A stretch of 64,000 nt of DNA from Patescibacteria group bacterium (GTDB lineage Bacteria; Patescibacteriota; Microgenomatia; UBA1406): contig JBAYJK010000001.1 in NCBI GenBank assembly GCA_041665145.1, positions 99,464-163,463 of the forward strand. The letters run 5' to 3'. Positions 56,368-64,000 of the stretch are shown piece after piece (the stretch's first letter is position 1; the number at the start of each line of letters is the position of its first letter). The position numbers and the translations under genes are program-made. The notes below the pieces were generated by a model. That model was not told where the DNA came from and did no database searches. It saw only the letters and a list, made by a program, of their open reading frames with translations.

Positions 56368-57396
56368 ATGGATAAGCTATATATTCAACATGAAGGTCGA
56401 GTAATTACCACAGACAGTCAACATACTCATGTAATGGCTCTTGCCCTTGACCAGAAAAACAATTACCAACAAGGAATTGTGCGATGTATTACTGACAGAA
56501 TTGGGGATGTAAGGGTTAAGGGTTATGTTGATCGAAGTGAATTGTATAGGGTCGACGGTAATTCTCTAGAGTACTTTAAAATCGGTAAGAAACTTCAAAT
56601 GAAAAACGAGTCGAAAATATTGAATAGATTGGTTGCTAAAGATGAAGATTTTATTGGTTTTGAAGATCCGGATATCTGGCACGATGAAAAATTGAACCAG
56701 ATGCATGTTTATTTTACCGTACCGATTATACCTAAGGATAAAACTAAAAAGATTAAAATCCACCTTGGTCATGCGGTTGGCGAGAATCTTGACTCTCTTG
56801 AAATGACGATGCCAGTTCTTAATGGCTTTGCGGATAAAAGCGCGAAAGAGTTAGCTATAGCACCCGTAAACAAGAAAGGTTTCCGGTTTAACTTAATCGA
56901 ATCCCGTGATCGCTCGAACGGAACAACGTATTCGGTAGTGATGACGGCAATAGCTAAAGATATGAATGGCCCATGGCAGTATGGCAAAATAGTTTGTCAC
57001 CCAGGGATGCTCAATATCCCATGGATCGGTGGCCACGCCTCCCCGGGACCTCTCTTCTCTCAGAACTTTATTAATGTCGGGGAAGGTAAAGTAATAGGGT
57101 TGATGAATGGACGTGAAGCAGATAAGGTTGTTGGAGAAACTACAACGTATGGTATGTTTTCTATAGGACTATTTCTCTACGACTATGAAAACGGGATTAT
57201 TGATTGGATATCCCCCGAGCCATTTATAAGGGACGACGAAGCGCAGACGATCACCTTTGCCAGTCAATTCATCGAAACAGGTAGGGGTGAAGGAATTTTG
57301 TATGCACATGTGGACGACTCATTTGTCAGGGCCTACACATTGAAAGCGAATCTAATAAAAAGATTACTTCCTAGTACGAAAGTAGTACAATATTGA
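56368..57396 (+). CDS. Beta-propeller glycosidase-like protein (GH130/DUF377-like)
   Basis: An FEDPDIW element resembling the GH130 EDPR motif and predicted all-beta repeats; the assignment is tentative. Confidence 0.35.
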   Translation: MDKLYIQHEGRVITTDSQHTHVMALALDQKNNYQQGIVRCITDRIGDVRVKGYVDRSELYRVDGNSLEYFKIGKKLQMKNESKILNRLVAKDEDFIGFEDPDIWHDEKLNQMHVYFTVPIIPKDKTKKIKIHLGHAVGENLDSLEMTMPVLNGFADKSAKELAIAPVNKKGFRFNLIESRDRSNGTTYSVVMTAIAKDMNGPWQYGKIVCHPGMLNIPWIGGHASPGPLFSQNFINVGEGKVIGLMNGREADKVVGETTTYGMFSIGLFLYDYENGIIDWISPEPFIRDDEAQTITFASQFIETGRGEGILYAHVDDSFVRAYTLKANLIKRLLPSTKVVQY

Positions 57397-57399
57397 GCA

Positions 57400-58578
57400 A
57401 TGTCAACCTCCACTATTGTTTGCCCCCATTGTCACGAACCCATTGAATTAACAGATGCGCTGTCGCACCAAATACGAGAGGGTGTGGTTAAGGAATTTGA
57501 AGACAAACTGAAAGCAAAAGACGTAGAGGTTGAAAAACAGAAGCGTGCCATGTGGGAAAAAGCACAGGTAGAGGCAAAAAAGAAAATAGAAGCAGCACAA
57601 AAAGAACAGATGAAGGAATTGGAAGAAGAATTGGTTGAGAAAACTAAGAAATTGGACGAAGCGCGGAAAGTGGAACTCGAGATCCGTAAACAGCAGCGCC
57701 AACTCGAAGAAGACAGAAAAGATCTTGAATTGCAGGTTGCCCGAAAACTGGATGAAGAACGGAAAAAGGTTACCGAAGATGTTTTGAAAAAATCCCAGGA
57801 GGAACATGCTCTCAAAGACCGGGAAAAAGAAAAAGTAATTCAGGATCTTCAGAAATCTCTTGAAGATGCGCAACGTAAAGCGGCACAAGGTTCGCAGCAA
57901 ACACAAGGCGAAGTTCAGGAACTTGCGCTTGAAGAACTGTTAAAATCCGAGTTTCCATATGACGAAATTTTGGAAGTTGCCAAAGGTGTCCGCGGAGCGG
58001 ACGCAATACAAAAAGTGCGGGACCAGCGGGGCAGGGAATGCGGAACAATCGTATGGGAATCGAAACGGACAAAAGCCTGGACTGATGGGTGGATTCCTAA
58101 ATTAAAAGAAGACCAGCGCGCGTCGCATGCAGATGTCGCGGTTTTAGTGACGGAAGCGTTGCCGAAAGATATTACGAATTTCGGATACAAGAGCAATGTG
58201 TGGATAACCAACTACCCGTCTTTAATCGGTGTGGTTACTGTTTTGCGAACAATGCTCATACAACTCTCGAGCATCAAACAATCACAAACGGGTAAGGATG
58301 AAAAAATGGAAGCGTTGTATAACTACTTAATCGGTACGGAGTTCCGTCAGAAAATAGAAGCCATCGTCGACGGATTCACCACGATGAGAGATGACTTGCA
58401 ACGTGAAAAAGATGCATTCAGAAAGTTGTGGGCAAAACGCGAAAAACAGATCCAACAGGTTCTTGAAAATACCATCGACATGCATGGAAGTCTGCAGGGA
58501 CTGATCGGGAAGTCTTTGCCGGAGATAGGTAGTCTCGAGTTGCCCGCAGCTGAAGATACGCAAGATACTCTGCTTTGA
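57400..58578 (+). CDS. DUF2130-like protein: N-terminal CxxC zinc-ribbon, ~200-aa K/E-rich coiled coil, conserved C-terminal domain
   Basis: CPHCHEPIEL at the N-terminus, a long EEKLK-type heptad region, and the C-terminal block VRGADAIQKV...GTIVWESKRTKAWTDGWIPKLKED...VAVLVTEALP. Confidence 0.45.
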   Translation: MSTSTIVCPHCHEPIELTDALSHQIREGVVKEFEDKLKAKDVEVEKQKRAMWEKAQVEAKKKIEAAQKEQMKELEEELVEKTKKLDEARKVELEIRKQQRQLEEDRKDLELQVARKLDEERKKVTEDVLKKSQEEHALKDREKEKVIQDLQKSLEDAQRKAAQGSQQTQGEVQELALEELLKSEFPYDEILEVAKGVRGADAIQKVRDQRGRECGTIVWESKRTKAWTDGWIPKLKEDQRASHADVAVLVTEALPKDITNFGYKSNVWITNYPSLIGVVTVLRTMLIQLSSIKQSQTGKDEKMEALYNYLIGTEFRQKIEAIVDGFTTMRDDLQREKDAFRKLWAKREKQIQQVLENTIDMHGSLQGLIGKSLPEIGSLELPAAEDTQDTLL

Positions 58579-58608: not shown

Positions 58609-58636
58609 TTGACAAATTTCTGTTACCTGGTATCCT
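58609..58636 (+). promoter_or_regulatory. Sigma70-type promoter of the copper operon (TTGACA -16- TGgTATCCT)
   Basis: TTGACA at 58609-58614, TG at 58628-58629, -10 TATCCT at 58631-58636. Confidence 0.5.
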
Positions 58637-58649
58637 GGGGGGGAGGATA
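58631..58649. promoter_or_regulatory. Putative CsoR/RcnR-family operator: TATCCT-GGGGGGG-AGGATA inverted repeat flanking a G7 tract
   Basis: A perfect 6-bp inverted repeat around G7, overlapping the -10 element. It has the same architecture as known RcnR/CsoR sites (AT-rich inverted repeat flanking a G/C tract). Confidence 0.55.
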
Positions 58650-58719: not shown

Positions 58720-58983
58720 ATGAATAACTACCAGGAAAAACTTTTGCATCGGCTCAAAATAATTCGGGGACACCTGGATAAAGTTATCAAGATGGTTGAA
58801 GCGGATGAATATTGTATGGATATTATGCAGCAAACTACGGCCGTCGGGTCCGCATTAAAGGAAGCGGAAAATATGATTTTGGAGAATCACCTGAAAACAT
58901 GCGTAACCGAATCCATCGTCAATCATCGCGGCGTCGAGAAGAAAGTAGACGAAGTAATAAAAGTTTTCAGGGCGAGGAAATAA
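58720..58983 (+). CDS. csoR: CsoR-family copper-sensing transcriptional repressor (DUF156)
   Basis: LKIIRGHLDKVIKMVEADEYCMDIMQQTTAVGSALKEAENMILENHLKTCV: a C...H...C ligand fingerprint (x-C-H-C, Cu(I)-type) in the conserved helix pattern. Confidence 0.8.
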   Translation: MNNYQEKLLHRLKIIRGHLDKVIKMVEADEYCMDIMQQTTAVGSALKEAENMILENHLKTCVTESIVNHRGVEKKVDEVIKVFRARK

Positions 58984-58986
58984 TAT

Positions 58987-59343
58987 ATGGAAAAAATTAT
59001 TGTTACTCTATTCGGGATCATAGGAATTGCTGTAACGTATTGGTTTTTCTTTAAGAAGGAAGAACGGCAAGTTGAAGCGCATGGAACTATTCATATTACG
59101 GTTGATGGTGGTTATGTTCCGCAAGTTATCTCCATAAAAAATAATTCCAAAACAAAAATCATATTTACCAGGAAAGATCCAAACCCGTGCCTTGAAGATG
59201 TTCTTATTCCTGATTTCAAAATTAAACGCGCACTGCCGTTAAAAATACCCGTTTCAGTAACTCTCGAACCTCACAAAATCGGAGAATACCAGTTGTCGTG
59301 CGGCATGCACATGTTCCACGGCAAAATAATTGTCCATGAGTAA
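58987..59343 (+). CDS. Membrane-anchored cupredoxin-like copper-binding protein
   Basis: N-terminal TM; the C-terminal [18 protein letters not shown] matches the Cupredoxin_1 C-x-M-H-M-x-x-G motif of copper-resistance operon proteins. Confidence 0.7.
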
Positions 59344-61615
59344 AACAAAACAAGTGATCAAAATCAAGGGTATGCATTGCGCGTCTTGTGTATACACACT
59401 CGAGAAAGCGCTGAAAAATGTAAACGGTGTAGTGAATGCAAATGTTAATCTCGCAACTGAGCAGGCGCATGTTGAGTATGACTCCTCTGTTGCTCGTGAG
59501 CAAGATCTTAGTGATGCGGTGCAGGGGGCGGGGTATCAAACACAAATAGCATTAGAAGATGAAGTGCGCGAAAAGGAACAGGCAAAATCTGAAAAGAAAA
59601 AAGAGCTTAACGCGTTGCGCATTAAAGTTGTAGTCAGTTTAATTTTAGGAGGACTTATTGTATGGGGTAGCTTTCCTGGACTTGTTGCTACGTCACCACT
59701 GTTTTTACGCAACGGGATACTGCAGCTAGTTTTAGCGACTATTATCCAGTTCTGGGCGGGTCTGGATTTTTATCGTGCAACGATTCCTGCACTTAAACAC
59801 AGAACCGCAAATATGGACACCCTTGTTGCGGTGGGAACAAGTGTTGCATACATCTATTCCGTTGTTGTTACTTTTTTCCCGGGAATTGTTGCACAAACAG
59901 GGATAGAAGTAATGTCTTACTTTGACGTCTCGACGGTTGTTATTGCACTTATTCTGCTCGGGCGGTATTTTGAAGCGAAAGCGAAATCGGGAACATCGGA
60001 GGCAATAACTAAGTTGATAGGTCTTCAAGCAAAAACTGCACGTGTTTTGAGAAACGGAAAAGAAATTGATATTCCGCTTTCAGAAGTTGTGGTTGGTGAC
60101 ATTATTCGGGTACGACCGGGGGAAAAAATACCCGTTGATGGAGTTATTACCGAAGGAAGTTCATCTGTTGATGAATCTATGGTTACGGGAGAAAGTATGC
60201 CCACAGATAAAATAAAAGGAAGTCCTGTTATCGGAGCTACCATAAACAAAAATGGATCATTTCTCTATAAAGCAACCAAAATAGGATCTGAAACCGTGCT
60301 ATCTCAAATAATCAAACTTGTGCAGGAAGCACAAGGCAGTAAGGCGCCCATACAACGTTTAGCTGACGTGGTGTCGTCATATTTTGTTCCCATTGTGATT
60401 ATGCTCGCGTTGGCAACATTTGTTGTATGGTTTGACTTTGGCGGACAATCAGCGTTTATTTTTGCCATGCTTAATATGGTCGCGGTTCTGGTGATTGCGT
60501 GTCCGTGTGCAATGGGTCTTGCGACCCCAACGGCAATCATGGTCGGAACCGGAATAGGTGCTGAACATGGCATTCTCATTAAAGATGCGCAGGCACTGGA
60601 AACTGCACATAAAATCAATACGATTGTTTTTGATAAAACAGGAACGCTAACGAACGGAAAGCCGGTAATAACTGATATTATTGAAATTCAAAATCCTGCC
60701 TCGCCGGCAGGCGGGTCAAATGACAAACATCAAATGAAACCCAAAATTCAAAAGGAAGAAATTTTGAGGATAGCTGCGTCGTTGGAGAAGAATTCGGAAC
60801 ATCCGTTGGCAGAAGCTATTGTCAAAGAGTCGGAACATAGAAAAATTACGTTGGAAAAAGTCACCTCTTTCAAAGCTATTCCCGGTCACGGCGTTCAAGG
60901 TGCAATTGGTAAAAAGAACTATGTATTGGGCAAACCGTCTTTCATTAAAAATGCGCACAAAGTATCGGAAATTGAAGAATTGGAACGTGCCGGAAAAACG
61001 GTTATGGTTTTGGCACAGAACGAAACAGTAATTGGTGCGATCGCGGTTGCCGACACCGTGAAAGACACGGCCAAGAATGCAGTTTTAACGCTGCAGAGAA
61101 TGGGAATCGAGGTTCTCATGATTACCGGTGATAATGAAAGAACTGCACAAACGATCGGTAAGGAGATCGGGGTAGACAGGGTGCTTGCGGAAGTGCTTCC
61201 CGGCGAGAAGGAAACCGAAATCCGTAAATTGCAAAAAGACAACAAAGTTGTTGCGATGGTCGGTGACGGAATAAATGATGCTCCGGCACTCGCTGCGGCT
61301 GACGTTGGAATAGCTGTCGGAACTGGAACAGATGTAGCGATCGAAACCGCGGATATTATTCTGGTTAACAAAAACTTATTTACAGTTGTCTCGGCAATTC
61401 AACTTTCCAAGTCTACCATGAGGACCATTAAAACAAATCTCTTTTGGGCTTTCGGCTACAATATTGTTCTTATTCCTGTCGCAATGGGAGTGTTGTATCC
61501 GTTGTTTAACATCTTATTGAGTCCGATTTTTGCTTCAGCTGCTATGGCACTGTCAAGCATTTCAGTGGTTACGAATTCCTTATTATTAAAAAAAATTAAA
61601 CTTCAGAATGCTTAA
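59330..61615 (+). CDS. copA: Copper-translocating P1B-type ATPase
   Basis: N-terminal [18 protein letters not shown], the TM CPC motif ([12 protein letters not shown]), [15 protein letters not shown], and SEHPLA. Confidence 0.95.
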
Positions 61616-62966
61616 AAAAACAACGCTACATGTTCAGGGCATGCACTGTCCGTCATGCGAAATTCTTGTTACGGACAAATTTAAAGAAGTCGGTGGGGTG
61701 AAAAACGTGAAAGCAAATTTCAGAAATTGTGAAGCAGAAGTTACGTATTCGGGAGACCTTAATCTTAATAAACTGAACAGAAAAATCGAGAACTTCGGAT
61801 ACAAGGTCGTTCACGGGCCGATTCAAGAAGAGATTCAGGAACCGTTATTAAGTAGATTAATGGATGTATCGATAATTTCATTGGTTTTACTTTTCGTATA
61901 TTTTATCGCTCAGAAGTTAGATCTCATTCCGACAATAGGGGGATCGGCTGGTTTGACAGTAATAACGGCGGTTCTTTTGGGTTTGGTTGCTTCTGTTTCC
62001 ACCTGTATGGCTACTTCAGGAGCGCTGTTTTTGTCTACAATAGGGACGTTAACAACCAACAGTAAAGAGTTGATAGTTGATAGTCGATGGTCAACACACA
62101 AACTCATTCCGGCGATCAGTTTCAGTTTAGGAAGAATTATTTCATACGCGGTTGTCGGCTTTATAGCAGGGTATGTAGGAAACACGCTTACAAACAACCT
62201 GCAACTGGGGGCGCTGTTAACATTAGTCGTCTCGATTTTTATGATTCTGGTCGGTCTTGATATGGCTAAAATAATTTCCCTACAAAAGTATATGGCACAA
62301 ACTTTCTCAAAAGGGATATTCGAGAAATTGTCCGGTAAATTACGAGAAAACCCCCGAAGAACCGCCTTGTTTTTGGGTATGGTGACGGTATTACTGCCGT
62401 GCGGATTTACACAAACAGTTCTGGTTTACAGCATCGGTTTAGCAGACCCCGTACAAAGCATGTTGATGATGGCAGCGTTTGCTGTTGGCACAGTGCCGAC
62501 GCTTATAGTTATCGGGTTTGTGAATTCGTTTACCACATCGAGCTGGTACCCGATTTTGCAAAAAATTATGGGAGTGGTGGTTTTGTTTATCGGTGTCACC
62601 TATGTCATGAATTTCCTCTCATTGGCGGGTGTTTCTTTCCCGAATCTAGCCGTGCCATCTGCCAGACAACAGGAAGTGACAAATGAACCCGTGGTGAAAA
62701 ACGGCGTTCAGGAAATTGTCATGACGGTAGACGGACGCGGTTACTCACCGAGTTTTTTCAAAGTCAAGAAGGGAGTTCCTGTCCGATGGATAATTAAGGG
62801 AGAAAATGTTTACGGTTGTCAGGGATATTTAGTTGCTCCGAGAATGAATGTGCAGCAGGCGCTGAAACCGGGAGATAATGTTATCGAATTTACTCCAACG
62901 GAAAATGGAACATTACCTTTTTCGTGCGGTATGGGAATGTATCGCGGACAATTTCAGGTCGAGTAA
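61608..62966 (+). CDS. Tri-domain protein: N-terminal HMA (CxxC) domain + polytopic Cys-containing membrane domain (DsbD/CcdA- or TauE-like) + C-terminal cupredoxin-like domain
   Basis: [14 protein letters not shown] (HMA); 8-10 TM helices with intramembrane Cys ([18 protein letters not shown]); C-terminal [13 protein letters not shown] (Cupredoxin_1-like). The start overlaps the copA stop. Confidence 0.6.
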
Positions 62967-62982
62967 GCACGTGTCGTAAATT

Positions 62983-63831
62983 GTGCTATTATTTTTGATA
63001 ATGGATATTTCGGTTACCAAAGCAAACGGGCTCACTGAAGCATACAAAACGGAAAAGGTGCGAGCATCAATGACCCGCGCCGGTGTTCCCGAAGAATTTC
63101 AACCCCGATTGTTGTCAAAAATAGAAGGAGAACTGTACGACAAAATTTCCACGGCAAAAATTCTGGATATCATTATCGGCAGTCTGAAACAGATATACCC
63201 CCAAGGTCAGACGCGGTACCAACTGAAACGCGCAATTATGGAAATGGGACCAAGCGGGTTTCCGTTCGAGAAATTTGTCGCCCGTCTTCTGCACGAGTAT
63301 GGTTATTCGGTTACCACAGACGTTGTTTTGTGGGGAGAATGTGTCAGTCATGAAGTAGATGTGCTGGCAACAAAAGACATTCGGGAGTATTTTGTCGAAT
63401 GTAAATATCACAATCAACCGGGAAGCAGATCAGATGTTAAAACAGCCCTTTATGTGAAATCTCGCGGTGATGACTTGGCAGCGAAGATGAGACAGGACCC
63501 GAAAAATGCTGGGACACAATACGGTCCGTGGGTATTCACGAACACCAAATTTTCTTCTGATGCCATCACGTACGCCGAATGCAAGAACATCCGTCTGACG
63601 GGATGGAGTTATCCGCAGAAGGGTAATCTGCAGGAGATGGTTGAAACTAAACATTTGTATCCGATAACCTGCCTTACCTCTCTGACGCATGACGAAAAAA
63701 TGAAACTTTTGGACAGAAATATCGTTCTCATTAGCGAGTTGTACAAAGACACGGCACTTATCGACAGTTTTAATTTAACAGAAGAGCAACGCGATGCTTT
63801 GGAATACGAACACAAGTATTTATCCGACTAG
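62983..63831 (+). CDS. ATP-cone domain fused to Mrr-cat-like PD-(D/E)XK restriction-endonuclease-fold domain
   Basis: An N-terminal ATP-cone-like segment of about 90 aa (VTKANGLTEAYKTEKVRASM...KILDIIIGSL), followed by FEKFVARLLHEYGY...HEVDVLAT...YFVECKYH (D ... E-C-K nuclease motif). Confidence 0.55.
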   Translation: MLLFLIMDISVTKANGLTEAYKTEKVRASMTRAGVPEEFQPRLLSKIEGELYDKISTAKILDIIIGSLKQIYPQGQTRYQLKRAIMEMGPSGFPFEKFVARLLHEYGYSVTTDVVLWGECVSHEVDVLATKDIREYFVECKYHNQPGSRSDVKTALYVKSRGDDLAAKMRQDPKNAGTQYGPWVFTNTKFSSDAITYAECKNIRLTGWSYPQKGNLQEMVETKHLYPITCLTSLTHDEKMKLLDRNIVLISELYKDTALIDSFNLTEEQRDALEYEHKYLSD

Positions 63832-64000
63832 AATAAGCTAATTAACCCCCGCTTTTTTGCTACCTCGAACGACCGTTTCATGTAGATAATGACGAGAAAA
63901 AGATAAAAAAAGTTCAATCCGAAACTGATCAACAGGTCGGATATCTGAACCTGACCGGTACGAACAAACTGTCGTGTACTTTCAAAAATGTAGCTTGGCG
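63830..64000 (-). CDS. Partial CDS (C-terminal ~56 aa of a hydrophobic protein; 5' end outside window)
   Basis: The minus-strand frame is open from the window edge down to a stop at 63830-63832, which overlaps the convergent stop of the upstream gene; it carries no start codon within the window. Confidence 0.3.

What the first reader, a model, noticed from the sequence alone, without database searches (positions are those of the whole stretch)
62983..63831. ATP-cone domain fused to an Mrr-like PD-(D/E)XK nuclease
The N-terminal segment of about 90 aa resembles the allosteric ATP-cone of NrdR and ribonucleotide reductases. The C-terminal half carries an Mrr-cat-type motif set (HEVDVLA ... YFVECKYH). 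A nucleotide (ATP/dATP)-sensing module coupled to a restriction-endonuclease fold suggests a nucleotide-pool-regulated DNase, possibly a defence or stress effector. It sits immediately downstream of the copper operon and is convergent with a partial membrane-protein gene.
Basis: partly seen in the sequence, partly recalled or inferred. Interest (0 to 1): 0.55.

Follow-up and report, generated by a model that had tools for sequence, protein, structure and literature searches.

The report
ATP-cone-gated nuclease ending a copper operon
This gene encodes a real but never-studied enzyme that joins an ATP/dATP-sensing "ATP-cone" to a DNA-cutting domain and a DNA-binding tail; it belongs to a large family that sits in metal-efflux and low-energy stress gene clusters, not in phage-defence islands.

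Summary
The ORF is real; its likely start is ATG 63001 (276 aa), not GTG 62983.

It has three domains:
- An N-terminal ATP-cone (aa ~3-80).
- A Mrr_cat PD-(D/E)XK nuclease core (aa ~85-205) with the tetrad E90/D120/E133/K135.
- A C-terminal AF1548-like, helix-hairpin-helix-like domain (aa ~222-276).

All three are supported by HMMs, by a profile search of solved structures, and by a pLDDT 92.8 model that matches PDB 1Y88 and NrdR/NrdA ATP-cones. Catalytic and nucleotide-contact residues are kept in 148-150 of 150 diverse representatives.

The architecture is fixed across at least 1,000 clusters at 50% identity and at least 595 species, mainly Patescibacteria and Bacteroidota. Databases name it only "ATP cone domain-containing protein", and I found no paper on it.

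The defence reading is not supported: no phage copies, 2 of 72,556 plasmids, no recurrent defence neighbours, and lineage-stable synteny.

In this clade the gene is the last gene of a CsoR/CopA copper operon. In Bacteroidota and Chlamydiota it heads an operon with a β-CASP hydrolase, a thymidine-phosphorylase-family gene and a PRPP-synthetase-like gene; in Bradyrhizobium, adjacent genes carrying those three annotations are microoxia-induced.

Most likely it is an adenine-nucleotide-gated stress nuclease. A co-varying Cys pair (C114/C194) hints at redox control.

The parts
63001..63831 (+). Coding sequence of the ATP-cone / PD-(D/E)XK / AF1548-like_C protein (276 aa plus stop). The GTG at 62983 is a less likely alternative start.
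   Evidence: ORF; identical 276-aa NCBI protein P0001; homolog N-termini align to MDISVTK.
63007..63240 (+). ATP-cone domain (aa ~3-80): a beta-hairpin (aa 4-14) followed by helices. Conserved K7, G10, K19, T51, Y73, K76.
   Evidence: Pfam; profile against the PDB hits NrdR/NrdA; model and Foldseek; conservation.
63223..63273 (+). Near-invariant coupling segment LKRAIMELGPSGFPFEKF (aa 75-91). It joins the last ATP-cone helix to nuclease helix alpha-1, which carries E90.
   Evidence: Alignment A1 (L75, K76, M80, G83, P84, G86, P88, F89, E90 invariant); pLDDT dips to 77 for residues 81-90.
63253..63615 (+). Mrr_cat-type PD-(D/E)XK nuclease core (aa ~85-205). Catalytic codons: E90 63268-63270, D120 63358-63360, E133 63397-63399, K135 63403-63405. 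Coupled Cys pair: C114 63340-63342 and C194 63580-63582.
   Evidence: Pfam Mrr_cat above cut-off; 1Y88 match; residue conservation; Cys co-variation; codons read directly from the sequence.
63664..63828 (+). AF1548-like C-terminal helical domain (aa ~222-276), probably a helix-hairpin-helix DNA-binding module.
   Evidence: The profile hits 1Y88 residues 131-195 at E 3.7e-6. PF22357 is found in 73 of 150 family members and HHH_5 in one. Weak Foldseek neighbours are HhH modules: Pol beta, BAF, a RAD51 paralog, RNAP alpha-CTD.
58720..62966 (+). Upstream copper operon on the same strand: csoR 58720-58983, cupredoxin 58987-59343, copA (P1B ATPase) 59330-61615, HMA-DsbD_2-cupredoxin 61608-62966. Gaps between genes are -14 to +3 nt, then 34 nt before ATG 63001.
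   Evidence: ORFs; Pfam; no terminator-like site between 62966 and 63001; the same order occurs in relatives.
58609..58649 (+). Candidate operon promoter (TTGACA-16-TATCCT, 10 of 12 matches) overlapping the palindrome TATCCT-G7-AGGATA (58631-58649), a possible CsoR operator.
   Evidence: Promoter scan; sequence; the only match in the window, with chance expectation 0.18. Suggestive only.
63828..64000 (-). 3' end of a convergent ABC-2-type permease gene. Its stop codon overlaps the last 4 nt of the nuclease gene.
   Evidence: Translation and BLASTP against the L081/L084 ABC-2 permeases (47% identity, E 6e-16); the same convergent arrangement appears.

Best explanation
The gene encodes a cytoplasmic, three-domain, adenine-nucleotide-gated nuclease.

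Shown here:
- It has an NrdR/RNR-type ATP-cone that keeps the triphosphate-contact residues.
- It has an intact Mrr-type PD-(D/E)XK active site, E90...D120...E133-x-K135.
- It has an AF1548-like C-terminal helical domain, and this architecture is fixed across the whole family.
- It has conserved positions inside metal-efflux and stress gene clusters.

Inferred:
- ATP or dATP binding to the cone changes the oligomeric or conformational state, as it does in RNR and NrdR.
- That change is passed through the near-invariant LKRAIMELGPxGxPFE segment to helix alpha-1, which carries catalytic E90, and so switches metal-dependent (probably Mg2+) cleavage of DNA on or off. The HhH-like tail would hold the DNA.
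- In this Patescibacteria genome the gene is transcribed as the last gene of the CsoR-controlled csoR-cupredoxin-copA-HMA/DsbD operon, so the enzyme is made during copper or thiol stress.
- In Bacteroidota and Chlamydiota it heads an operon with a beta-CASP hydrolase, a thymidine-phosphorylase-family enzyme and a PRPP-synthetase-like enzyme. There it plausibly starts nucleic-acid turnover or repair when energy charge falls.
- A co-varying Cys pair (C114/C194) may add redox control.

It is not a restriction or phage-defence enzyme.
For: Domains.

Residue conservation in 150 representatives that are at most 50% identical to each other:
- D120 and K135 in 150/150; E90 and E133 in 149/150.
- K7 in 149/150; K19 in 148/150; T/S51 in 148/150; Y/F73 in 150/150; K/R76 in 149/150.
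- K7, G10, K19 and T51 align with NrdA K9, G12, K21 and T55 in the alignment.

Fixed architecture: all 150 representatives align over all three regions, and lengths are 265-300 aa for almost all.

Operon membership here: gene spacing and no terminator-like site. The same HMA-DsbD-cupredoxin-then-nuclease order holds at 77% and 54% protein identity, with 4-bp overlaps in L081 and L084. P0010 sits in an operon headed by a CsoR-family repressor.

Cross-phylum link to metal pumps: P-type ATPases lie within 8 kb in 22 of 83 loci. Thirteen loci carry CPC/CPH heavy-metal types and 7 carry PEGL P2 types. CusB-like and RND efflux genes also recur.

Partner module: the order ATP-cone protein, MBL/beta-CASP, thymidine-phosphorylase family, ribose-phosphate pyrophosphokinase is found, with overlapping genes, in 7 Bacteroidota chromosomal loci and on a Pontibacter plasmid and a Criblamydia plasmid. 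In Bradyrhizobium diazoefficiens, adjacent genes with the same three partner annotations (bll3115-3117) belong to the measured core microoxic proteome (PMC6515984); their homology to the partners here was not tested.

Design precedent: Can2/Cdn1 (CARF plus PD-(D/E)XK) are among the structural neighbours.
Against: - No biochemical data exist for any family member. Nucleotide binding, nuclease activity and substrate are all inferred.
- This protein's own ATP-cone score is below Pfam's cut-off, and the Arg next to the hairpin Lys (NrdA R10) is Ala or Ser in this family.
- There is no universal partner gene. Contexts differ by lineage: copper operon, MnmA/MgtC, DUF2079/DinB, or the beta-CASP module. 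The stress link could therefore reflect co-residence in flexible genome regions. The two plasmid copies lie near an IS element or an integrase.
- Co-transcription with the copper operon rests on spacing and a crude terminator scan only.
- The candidate CsoR operator is not statistically strong and does not recur in relatives.
- The Bradyrhizobium cluster is not reported to include an ATP-cone protein.
Confidence: 0.5

Rival explanations
1. Anti-phage or abortive-infection effector. The ATP-cone detects the nucleotide-pool disturbance caused by infection (ATP loss or a dATP surge) and releases a non-specific DNase.
For: Mrr_cat is the catalytic domain of type IV restriction enzymes. There are weak PADLOC hits to Mrr-like parts of ZorD and to a CARF-PD-(D/E)XK protein. 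Sensor-plus-PD-(D/E)XK is a common defence design, and Can2/Cdn1 are among the structural neighbours. The family is patchily distributed, and two copies are on plasmids.
Against: No recurrent defence neighbour occurs among 117 flanking genes; the commonest PADLOC family matches only 4. No methyltransferase or other defence partner recurs among the clustered neighbours. Synteny with housekeeping genes is stable within lineages. There are no phage homologs and no full-length viral structural analog. Conservation is unusually high for a defence gene: 25% mean column identity over representatives at most 50% identical, with many invariant positions. The gene sits inside metabolic and efflux operons with overlapping reading frames.
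Confidence: 0.12
2. Structure-specific DNA-repair or recombination nuclease (NucS/EndoMS-like or Hjc-like). Its activity is tied to the dNTP/ATP state so that damage caused by copper or oxidative stress is processed only when repair synthesis is possible.
For: NucS/EndoMS (2vld, 5gke) and Hjc-type models are among the structural and HMM neighbours. A Y-family polymerase (DinB/IMS) is a conserved neighbour (mostly convergent) in 10 Levybacteria-type loci. The HhH-like tail suggests sequence-independent DNA binding. The copper operon context links to oxidative damage.
Against: The DinB neighbour is confined to one lineage and is mostly convergent, so it is not co-transcribed. No other repair genes recur. 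The similarity to NucS and Hjc is only at the level of the common PD-(D/E)XK core (TM about 0.3).
Confidence: 0.18
3. Catabolic or salvage nuclease. When ATP is low it degrades nucleic acid to feed the downstream beta-CASP nuclease, an NMP/nucleoside phosphorylase and a PRPP-synthetase-like enzyme, for nucleotide recycling or pentose-derived ATP.
For: The four-gene overlapping module is conserved in Bacteroidota and Chlamydiota. In Criblamydia it is flanked by phosphoketolase, glycogen phosphorylase and acetate kinase. In Bradyrhizobium, adjacent genes annotated like the three partner genes are microoxia-induced. The thymidine-phosphorylase-family partner is about 500 aa with an N-terminal extension of about 100 aa; from my own recollection, not tested here, this resembles archaeal AMP phosphorylase.
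Against: This module is absent from the present window and from the CPR loci. A single-genome cell degrading its own DNA needs tight control that has not been demonstrated. The substrate is unknown, and the partner enzymes' activities are inferred from family names only.
Confidence: 0.15
4. Non-catalytic, NrdR-like nucleotide-responsive DNA-binding regulator that uses the nuclease fold and the HhH tail only to bind DNA.
For: NrdR is the best ATP-cone match. The protein carries probable DNA-binding modules.
Against: The full catalytic tetrad is retained in 149-150 of 150 representatives; inactivated PD-(D/E)XK domains normally lose these residues. The gene lies at the 3' end of operons. It has no Zn-ribbon.
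Confidence: 0.05

Closest known systems
AF1548 of Archaeoglobus fulgidus (PDB 1Y88; structural-genomics protein of unknown function; Pfam Mrr_cat plus AF1548-like_C)
   Same: It shares the nuclease core and the C-terminal helical domain. Evidence: phmmer E 2.8e-32 over aa 91-226, C-terminal profile E 3.7e-6, and Foldseek TM 0.80 at 33% identity. It has the same D/E/K triad, which was predicted catalytic in PMC1821046 and PMC1874628.
   Different: The crystallised 199-residue chain has only about 21 residues before the nuclease core, so it has no ATP-cone. It has Gln where this family has His117. No function or ligand is known.
NrdR (ATP-cone transcriptional repressor of ribonucleotide reductase genes)
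   Same: It is the best-matching ATP-cone (profile E 9.2e-5; rmsd 2.1 A over 82 columns). It is likewise an ATP-cone fused to a nucleic-acid-binding output. From the literature as I recall it, ATP/dATP-dependent oligomerisation sets its activity.
   Different: NrdR's output is an N-terminal Zn-ribbon, whereas here the output is a C-terminal nuclease plus an HhH-like domain. Domain order is reversed, and there is no nrd gene context here.
Class Ia/III ribonucleotide reductase N-terminal ATP-cone (E. coli NrdA, Prevotella copri NrdD)
   Same: It has the same fold and an N-terminal position. The hairpin Lys/Gly, K21 and T55 equivalents are conserved.
   Different: The regulated catalytic domain is a radical reductase, not a nuclease. 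NrdA R10 is Ala or Ser here.
Mrr and other type IV restriction endonucleases with Mrr_cat
   Same: It belongs to the same Pfam catalytic family, scoring above the cut-off.
   Different: Mrr has an N-terminal winged-helix reader of modified DNA and acts in defence. Here the N-terminus is an ATP-cone and the genomic context is not defence.
CARF-nuclease effectors Can2 / Card1 / Cdn1 of type III CRISPR systems
   Same: They share the design logic: an N-terminal nucleotide-ligand sensor fused to a PD-(D/E)XK nuclease. They are structural neighbours of the nuclease half, and 5 of 150 family members hit Card1_endonuc.
   Different: Their sensor is a CARF domain that binds cyclic oligoadenylates, and they need a CRISPR context. 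Neither is present here.

Membership tests
ATP-cone domain (PF03477) | HMM match at or above Pfam's gathering score | tested here: inconclusive
   The window protein scores 21.2 bits against a cut-off of 25.8. Close homologs score 30.6 and 33.2 bits, and 128 of 150 representatives match at E<=1e-3. The feature is met for the family and marginal for this single sequence.
ATP-cone domain (PF03477) | Fold: N-terminal beta-hairpin lid over a helical bundle, superposable on solved ATP-cones | tested here: met
   The model has strands at aa 4-6 and 12-14 and then helices, with pLDDT 88-95. Foldseek matches NrdR 9gex at rmsd 2.1 A over 82 columns and NrdA at probability 1.0. The profile's credible PDB hits are all NrdR or RNR cones.
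ATP-cone domain (PF03477) | Conserved nucleotide-contact residues (NrdA K9, K21, T55 equivalents) | tested here: met
   K7 in 149/150, K19 in 148/150 and T/S51 in 148/150. They align to NrdA/NrdR. The R10 equivalent is not conserved (Ala or Ser). The identity of the NrdA contact residues comes from my own recollection of the literature.
ATP-cone domain (PF03477) | Binds ATP/dATP and changes activity or oligomeric state | not testable with these tools
   This needs ITC, SEC-MALS or mass photometry on purified protein.
Mrr_cat / PD-(D/E)XK nuclease (PF04471) | HMM match above the gathering score | tested here: met
   30.1 bits against a cut-off of 21; 139 of 150 representatives match.
Mrr_cat / PD-(D/E)XK nuclease (PF04471) | Alpha-beta-beta-beta-alpha-beta core carrying E...D...(D/E)xK | tested here: met
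   Secondary structure runs H87-99, E103-111, E116-125, E128-135, H146-164, E173-180. E90, D120, E133 and K135 are present in 149-150 of 150. Foldseek matches 1Y88, MspJI, NucS and Can2.
Mrr_cat / PD-(D/E)XK nuclease (PF04471) | Metal-dependent phosphodiester cleavage | not testable with these tools
   This needs an in vitro nuclease assay with D120A and K135A controls.
Type IV restriction enzyme Mrr (functional class) | N-terminal modified-DNA reader (Mrr_N winged helix) and a defence or mobile-element context | tested here: not met
   The N-terminus is an ATP-cone. No defence neighbours recur, there are no phage homologs and only 2 plasmid homologs.
AF1548-like family (PDB 1Y88; PF04471 plus PF22357) | Nuclease core plus the AF1548-like_C helical domain, alignable end to end | tested here: met
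   PF22357 is found in 73 of 150 representatives. This protein's own C-terminus gave no Pfam hit, but it aligns with the family.
NrdR | N-terminal Zn-ribbon (two CxxC) preceding the ATP-cone; binds NrdR boxes upstream of nrd genes | tested here: not met
   The protein starts directly with the ATP-cone hairpin at aa 3. There is no CxxC pair, and the adjacent genes in the window are copper-operon and ABC-2 permease genes, not nrd genes.
CARF/SAVED-nuclease effectors (Can2, Card1, Cap4) | CARF or SAVED sensor domain; cyclic-oligonucleotide signalling partner (Cas10 or CD-NTase) nearby | tested here: not met
   The sensor is an ATP-cone, not CARF. Only 2 of 117 neighbours hit a CRISPR-associated model (Csa3), and there is no recurrent CRISPR or CBASS gene.

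The most novel reading that the evidence does not exclude
This would be the first ATP-cone that controls a nuclease rather than ribonucleotide reduction. The enzyme would be gated both by adenylate pools and by the redox state of a Cys114-Cys194 pair. It would be a conserved output of copper/heavy-metal and low-oxygen/low-energy stress regulons across Patescibacteria, Bacteroidota and Chlamydiota. In the Bacteroidota/Chlamydiota operon it would start controlled nucleic-acid breakdown that feeds a beta-CASP nuclease, an NMP/nucleoside phosphorylase and a PRPP-synthetase-like enzyme.
Probability: 0.25. Interest if true: 0.75.

Novelty: new variant of a known kind. Interest (0 to 1): 0.52.

Why it matters
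All solved ATP-cone structures recovered here are from ribonucleotide reductases or their repressor NrdR. A large, sharply conserved family in which the same sensor sits directly on a nuclease active site would extend ATP/dATP allostery to DNA cleavage. It would also give a compact 276-aa model for studying how the cone transmits its signal.

The family is common in tiny Patescibacteria genomes and in cultivable Bacteroidota (Pontibacter, Cyclobacterium, Chitinophaga), so it can be studied by genetics.

Its repeated placement in copper/heavy-metal efflux operons, and at the head of an operon whose partner gene types are microoxia-induced in Bradyrhizobium, points to an unrecognised link between metal or energy stress and nucleic-acid processing. 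It also cautions against reading every sensor-plus-restriction-fold protein as phage defence.

Tried and rejected
1. Extending the contig. Exact-sequence look-ups of the 276-aa and 282-aa forms found nothing on record, so context came from homologs instead.

2. Literature. Searches combining ATP-cone or "ATP cone" with Mrr, restriction endonuclease, endonuclease, nuclease or defense, and searches for AF1548 and 1Y88, found no description of this fusion. They returned only the 2007 predictions that AF1548 is a PD-(D/E)XK enzyme, and its listing under Mrr_cat/COG1787 in the 2012 superfamily survey.

3. Defence island. Rejected after the PADLOC scan of this protein and of 117 neighbours, the phage and plasmid searches and the viral fold search (domain-level hits only).

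4. A Cys2His2-type metal site (C114, H117, C134, H137, C194). Not supported as a single unit: C134 is Ala in 20 of 150, and H117 and H137 vary independently. Only C114 and C194 co-vary (10 joint losses, none single). The distance between them could not be measured because model coordinates are not exposed.

5. A conserved CsoR operator. TATCCT-G7-AGGATA is unique in the window, but its chance expectation is 0.18, and it is absent from the heads of the related loci.

6. NCBIfam has no model for the family.

7. The Bacteroidota partner genes (beta-CASP, thymidine-phosphorylase family, PRPP-synthetase-like, Usp), DinB and MnmA are not in this window.
Full report
**Observation.** The + strand ORF 62983..63831 exists and contains the quoted motifs (...SHEVDVLATKDIREYFVECKYHNQ...). 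The likely start is ATG 63001, giving 276 aa. An identical 276-aa protein is deposited at NCBI as [quoted passage not shown] (P0001), and the N-termini of homologs align to MDISVTK. The window therefore comes from a Patescibacteria (CPR) genome.

**Domains.**
- Pfam gives Mrr_cat at 30.1 bits (cut-off 21; aa 85-199). It gives ATP-cone at 21.2 bits, below the cut-off of 25.8 (E 4.4e-4; aa 4-63).
- Three independent tests settle the weak ATP-cone call.
  - Close homologs pass the cut-off (30.6 and 33.2 bits), and 128 of 150 diverse family representatives match at E<=1e-3.
  - A profile of the N-terminal 84 residues, searched against all PDB sequences, has as its credible hits only NrdR (E 9.2e-5) and RNR ATP-cones (E. 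coli NrdA 2e-3, NrdD 0.019). The alignment places K7, G10, K19 and T51 on NrdA K9, G12, K21 and T55.
  - An AlphaFold model (pLDDT 92.8, pTM 0.87) superposes on NrdR (rmsd 2.1 A over 82 columns) and on NrdA cones (probability 1.0).
- The nuclease half matches PDB 1Y88 (A. fulgidus AF1548, function unknown) at E 2.8e-32 by sequence and at TM 0.80 by structure.
  - Modelled alone (pLDDT 79.6), its structural neighbours are individually weak (E>0.1).
  - Most of those neighbours are helix-hairpin-helix DNA-binding modules: Pol beta, BAF, a RAD51 paralog, the Pol kappa thumb and RNAP alpha-CTD.
  - One family member hits HHH_5 directly.

**Family.**
- The exhaustive search of 1.84 billion representatives found 1,020 clusters at 50% identity with E<=1e-3, and 418 with E<=1e-30. 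Almost all are 265-300 aa and align from residue ~3.
These are mainly Bacteroidota (including cultured Pontibacter, Cyclobacterium, Chitinophaga, Nibribacter and Taibaiella) and Patescibacteria, plus Balneolaceae, Nitrospiraceae and Parachlamydiales.
- In 150 representatives that are at most 50% identical to each other, all three regions are present in all 150.
  - Catalytic residues: D120, K135, R155, D158 and N181 are 150/150; E90 and E133 are 149/150; E118 is 148/150.
  - ATP-cone residues: K7 149, K19 148, T/S51 148, Y/F73 150, K/R76 149.
- The segment that links the cone's last helix to nuclease helix alpha-1, LKRAIMELGPSGFPFEKF (aa 75-91, ending at catalytic E90), is nearly invariant. 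It is the only part of the model where confidence dips. I read this as the allosteric coupling element; that is an inference.

**An unexpected detail.** C114, in the beta1-beta2 turn just before E118/D120, and C194 are present together in 140 representatives and absent together in 10, never singly. H117, C134 and H137 vary independently. This is the signature of a directly interacting Cys pair, either a disulfide or redox switch or a shared ligand. I could not measure the distance because model coordinates are not exposed.

**Context in this window and its clade.**
- Upstream on the same strand, with gaps of -14 to +3 nt, lie four genes:
  - csoR, a metal-sensitive repressor;
  - a cupredoxin;
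  - copA (HMA plus P-type ATPase);
  - an HMA-DsbD_2-cupredoxin membrane protein.
- The nuclease gene follows after 34 nt, with no terminator-like site in between.
- The best promoter-like site lies before csoR and overlaps a TATCCT-G7-AGGATA palindrome. The palindrome is unique in the window but not statistically strong.
- The convergent partial gene at the window end is an ABC-2 permease whose stop overlaps the nuclease gene's end.
- The arrangement recurs in relatives.
  - The relatives at 77%, 54% and 54% identity (P0002, P0007, P0009) all show the order HMA-DsbD-cupredoxin, nuclease, convergent gene. That gene is an ABC-2 permease in the P0007 and P0009 contigs and was not identified in the short P0002 contig. 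The P0007 and P0009 contigs also show 4-bp start/stop overlaps.
  - P0010 ends a different operon headed by a CsoR-family repressor.
  - P0012 lies a few kb from cupredoxin, DsbD and thioredoxin genes.
- So the copper operon is conserved synteny, not an accident of position.

**Context across phyla.** I called genes crudely in 80 species loci, clustered the four genes on each side of the target (77 usable loci), and named the recurrent clusters with Pfam. No neighbour is universal.
- Levybacteria-type CPR have DUF2079 upstream (11-12 loci) and a DinB gene downstream, mostly convergent (10 loci).
- Saccharibacteria and Parcubacteria have MnmA upstream (7-8 loci) and MgtC downstream.
- Bacteroidota have a beta-CASP MBL hydrolase immediately downstream, often overlapping (15 loci).
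  - In 7 of them it is followed by a ~500-aa thymidine-phosphorylase-family gene and a PRPP-synthetase-like gene.
  - Usp genes, 2-hydroxyacid dehydrogenase, CusB-like adaptors and RND pumps surround the cluster.
- P-type ATPases lie within 8 kb in 22 of 83 loci. Thirteen loci carry CPC/CPH (P1B heavy-metal) motifs and 7 carry PEGL (P2).
  - The arrangements differ: in a Saccharibacteria locus (L018) the ATPase overlaps the nuclease gene by 8 bp and a CsoR homolog is present, and a Microgenomates locus is another case.
  - With only a few P-type ATPases per genome, I would expect a few percent by chance. That is my estimate, not a computed control.
- RefSeq annotation of the only two plasmid copies confirms the module in curated names: [quoted passage not shown].
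  - One copy is on a Pontibacter plasmid, behind a 2-hydroxyacid dehydrogenase.
  - The other is on a Criblamydia (Chlamydiota) plasmid. It sits between TolC/RND-adaptor/CusA-CzcA, a P-type ATPase, phosphoketolase and glycogen phosphorylase on one side, and acetate kinase on the other.
- In Bradyrhizobium diazoefficiens, three adjacent genes with the same annotations as the partner genes (bll3115 MBL hydrolase, bll3116 ribose-phosphate pyrophosphokinase, bll3117 thymidine-phosphorylase family) belong to the measured core microoxic proteome. Protein log2 fold-changes are 2.9, 4.4 and 2.1, and transcript fold-changes are 15.4, 7.7 and 5.1. Phosphoketolase, a CusA/CzcA pump and the copper ATPase FixI are also induced (PMC6515984). 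No ATP-cone protein is mentioned there, and I did not test sequence homology between those genes and the partners found here.

**Defence tested and not supported.**
- PADLOC gives only weak Mrr-core hits for the protein itself.
- Among 117 immediate neighbours, the commonest PADLOC family matches 4; this is "QueC", which I take to be a cross-hit from MnmA-type PP-loop ATPases. Nothing recurs.
- There is no homolog in 50,697 phage records and only 2 in 72,556 plasmids.
- The viral structure library returns only separate Mrr-like or RNR-cone matches.

**Mechanism (my commitment).**
- Shown here are the three-domain anatomy, the intact active site and cone contact residues, the fixed architecture, the conserved operon positions and the non-defence context.
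- I infer that adenine nucleotides bound by the cone set the oligomeric or conformational state, as in RNR and NrdR (my reading of the established literature).
- I also infer that this state, passed through the invariant linker to E90, gates metal-dependent cleavage of DNA held by the HhH-like tail.
- I further infer that the enzyme is produced with copper-efflux genes here, and with low-oxygen/low-energy genes elsewhere.
- The C114-C194 pair may add a redox input.
- Whether the substrate is damaged DNA (repair) or bulk nucleic acid (turnover or salvage) cannot be decided from these data. I list both as rivals, alongside defence and a non-catalytic regulator.

**Comparison with known systems.**
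- It is a member of the AF1548-like branch of Mrr_cat (COG1787 in the 2012 PD-(D/E)XK survey), and it carries a genuine ATP-cone.
- It is not an Mrr-type restriction enzyme (no modified-DNA reader, no defence context), not NrdR (no Zn-ribbon) and not a CARF nuclease (different sensor).
- It works like the last two in design: a nucleotide sensor controlling a nucleic-acid-directed output.
- The crystallised AF1548 chain lacks the cone, which suggests that the sensor was added to a pre-existing nuclease-plus-HhH core.

**Novelty and score.** The architecture is already catalogued in Pfam domain annotations and in NCBI names. I found no paper that describes, predicts a role for, or tests it. I rate it a new variant of a known kind: a ligand-gated PD-(D/E)XK nuclease with an ATP-cone as sensor. 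I score interest at about 0.5. The fusion is real, widespread and testable, and it comes with an unexplained cross-phylum link to metal and energy stress and a possible redox switch. However, it is a database-known family, and every functional step is still inference.

Noticed in passing
window 63340-63342 (C114) and 63580-63582 (C194): The two cysteines co-vary perfectly across 150 diverse family members: both are present in 140, both absent in 10, and neither is ever lost alone. This suggests a disulfide/redox pair or a shared ligand next to the active site. H117, C134 and H137 are also highly conserved but vary independently.
   Followed up: partly
L086 1972-6597 (Pontibacter plasmid); L087 12001-16608 (Criblamydia plasmid); also L009, L014, L035, L040, L067, L074, L079: A four-gene overlapping module is conserved across Bacteroidota and Chlamydiota: ATP-cone nuclease, MBL/beta-CASP hydrolase, thymidine-phosphorylase-family protein (~500 aa, with an N-terminal extension), and a PRPP-synthetase-like protein. 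In Bradyrhizobium, adjacent genes with the same three partner annotations (bll3115-3117) are microoxia-induced (PMC6515984). The module's biochemistry appears uncharacterised.
   Followed up: partly
window 58631-58649: The perfect palindrome TATCCT-GGGGGGG-AGGATA overlaps the -10 of the best promoter-like site just upstream of csoR. It is a possible CsoR operator. It is the only match in the window, but chance expectation is 0.18, and it was not found at the heads of related loci.
   Followed up: partly
window 61608-62966: An unusual fused copper-handling membrane protein, HMA + DsbD_2 transmembrane region + C-terminal cupredoxin. It is conserved directly upstream of the nuclease gene in the CPR relatives (L081, L084, P0002 contig), and a second copy occurs in L084.
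   Followed up: no
window 63828-63831: The nuclease gene and the convergent ABC-2 permease gene overlap at their 3' ends by 4 nt. The same tail-to-tail overlap (about 14 nt) occurs in L081 and L084.
   Followed up: partly
window 56368-58578: A 342-aa ORF with no Pfam match is followed, 3 nt later, by a DUF2130 protein with a long N-terminal coiled-coil-like Lys/Glu-rich region. Both lie just upstream of the copper operon, and their function is unknown.
   Followed up: no
L017 and L019; also L011, L016, L025, L034, L055: L017 (Terrimonas MAG) and L019 (labelled 'uncultured Citrobacter') have identical gene maps. Several loci labelled 'uncultured Gammaproteobacteria' carry the Levybacteria-type DUF2079-nuclease-DinB synteny. 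These MAG taxonomic labels are probably wrong.
   Followed up: no
L018 5726-8750: In a Saccharibacteria MAG, a 756-aa P-type ATPase overlaps the start of the nuclease gene by 8 bp, and a CsoR homolog is present in the same locus. This is an independent second case of the metal-pump/nuclease operon in another CPR lineage.
   Followed up: partly
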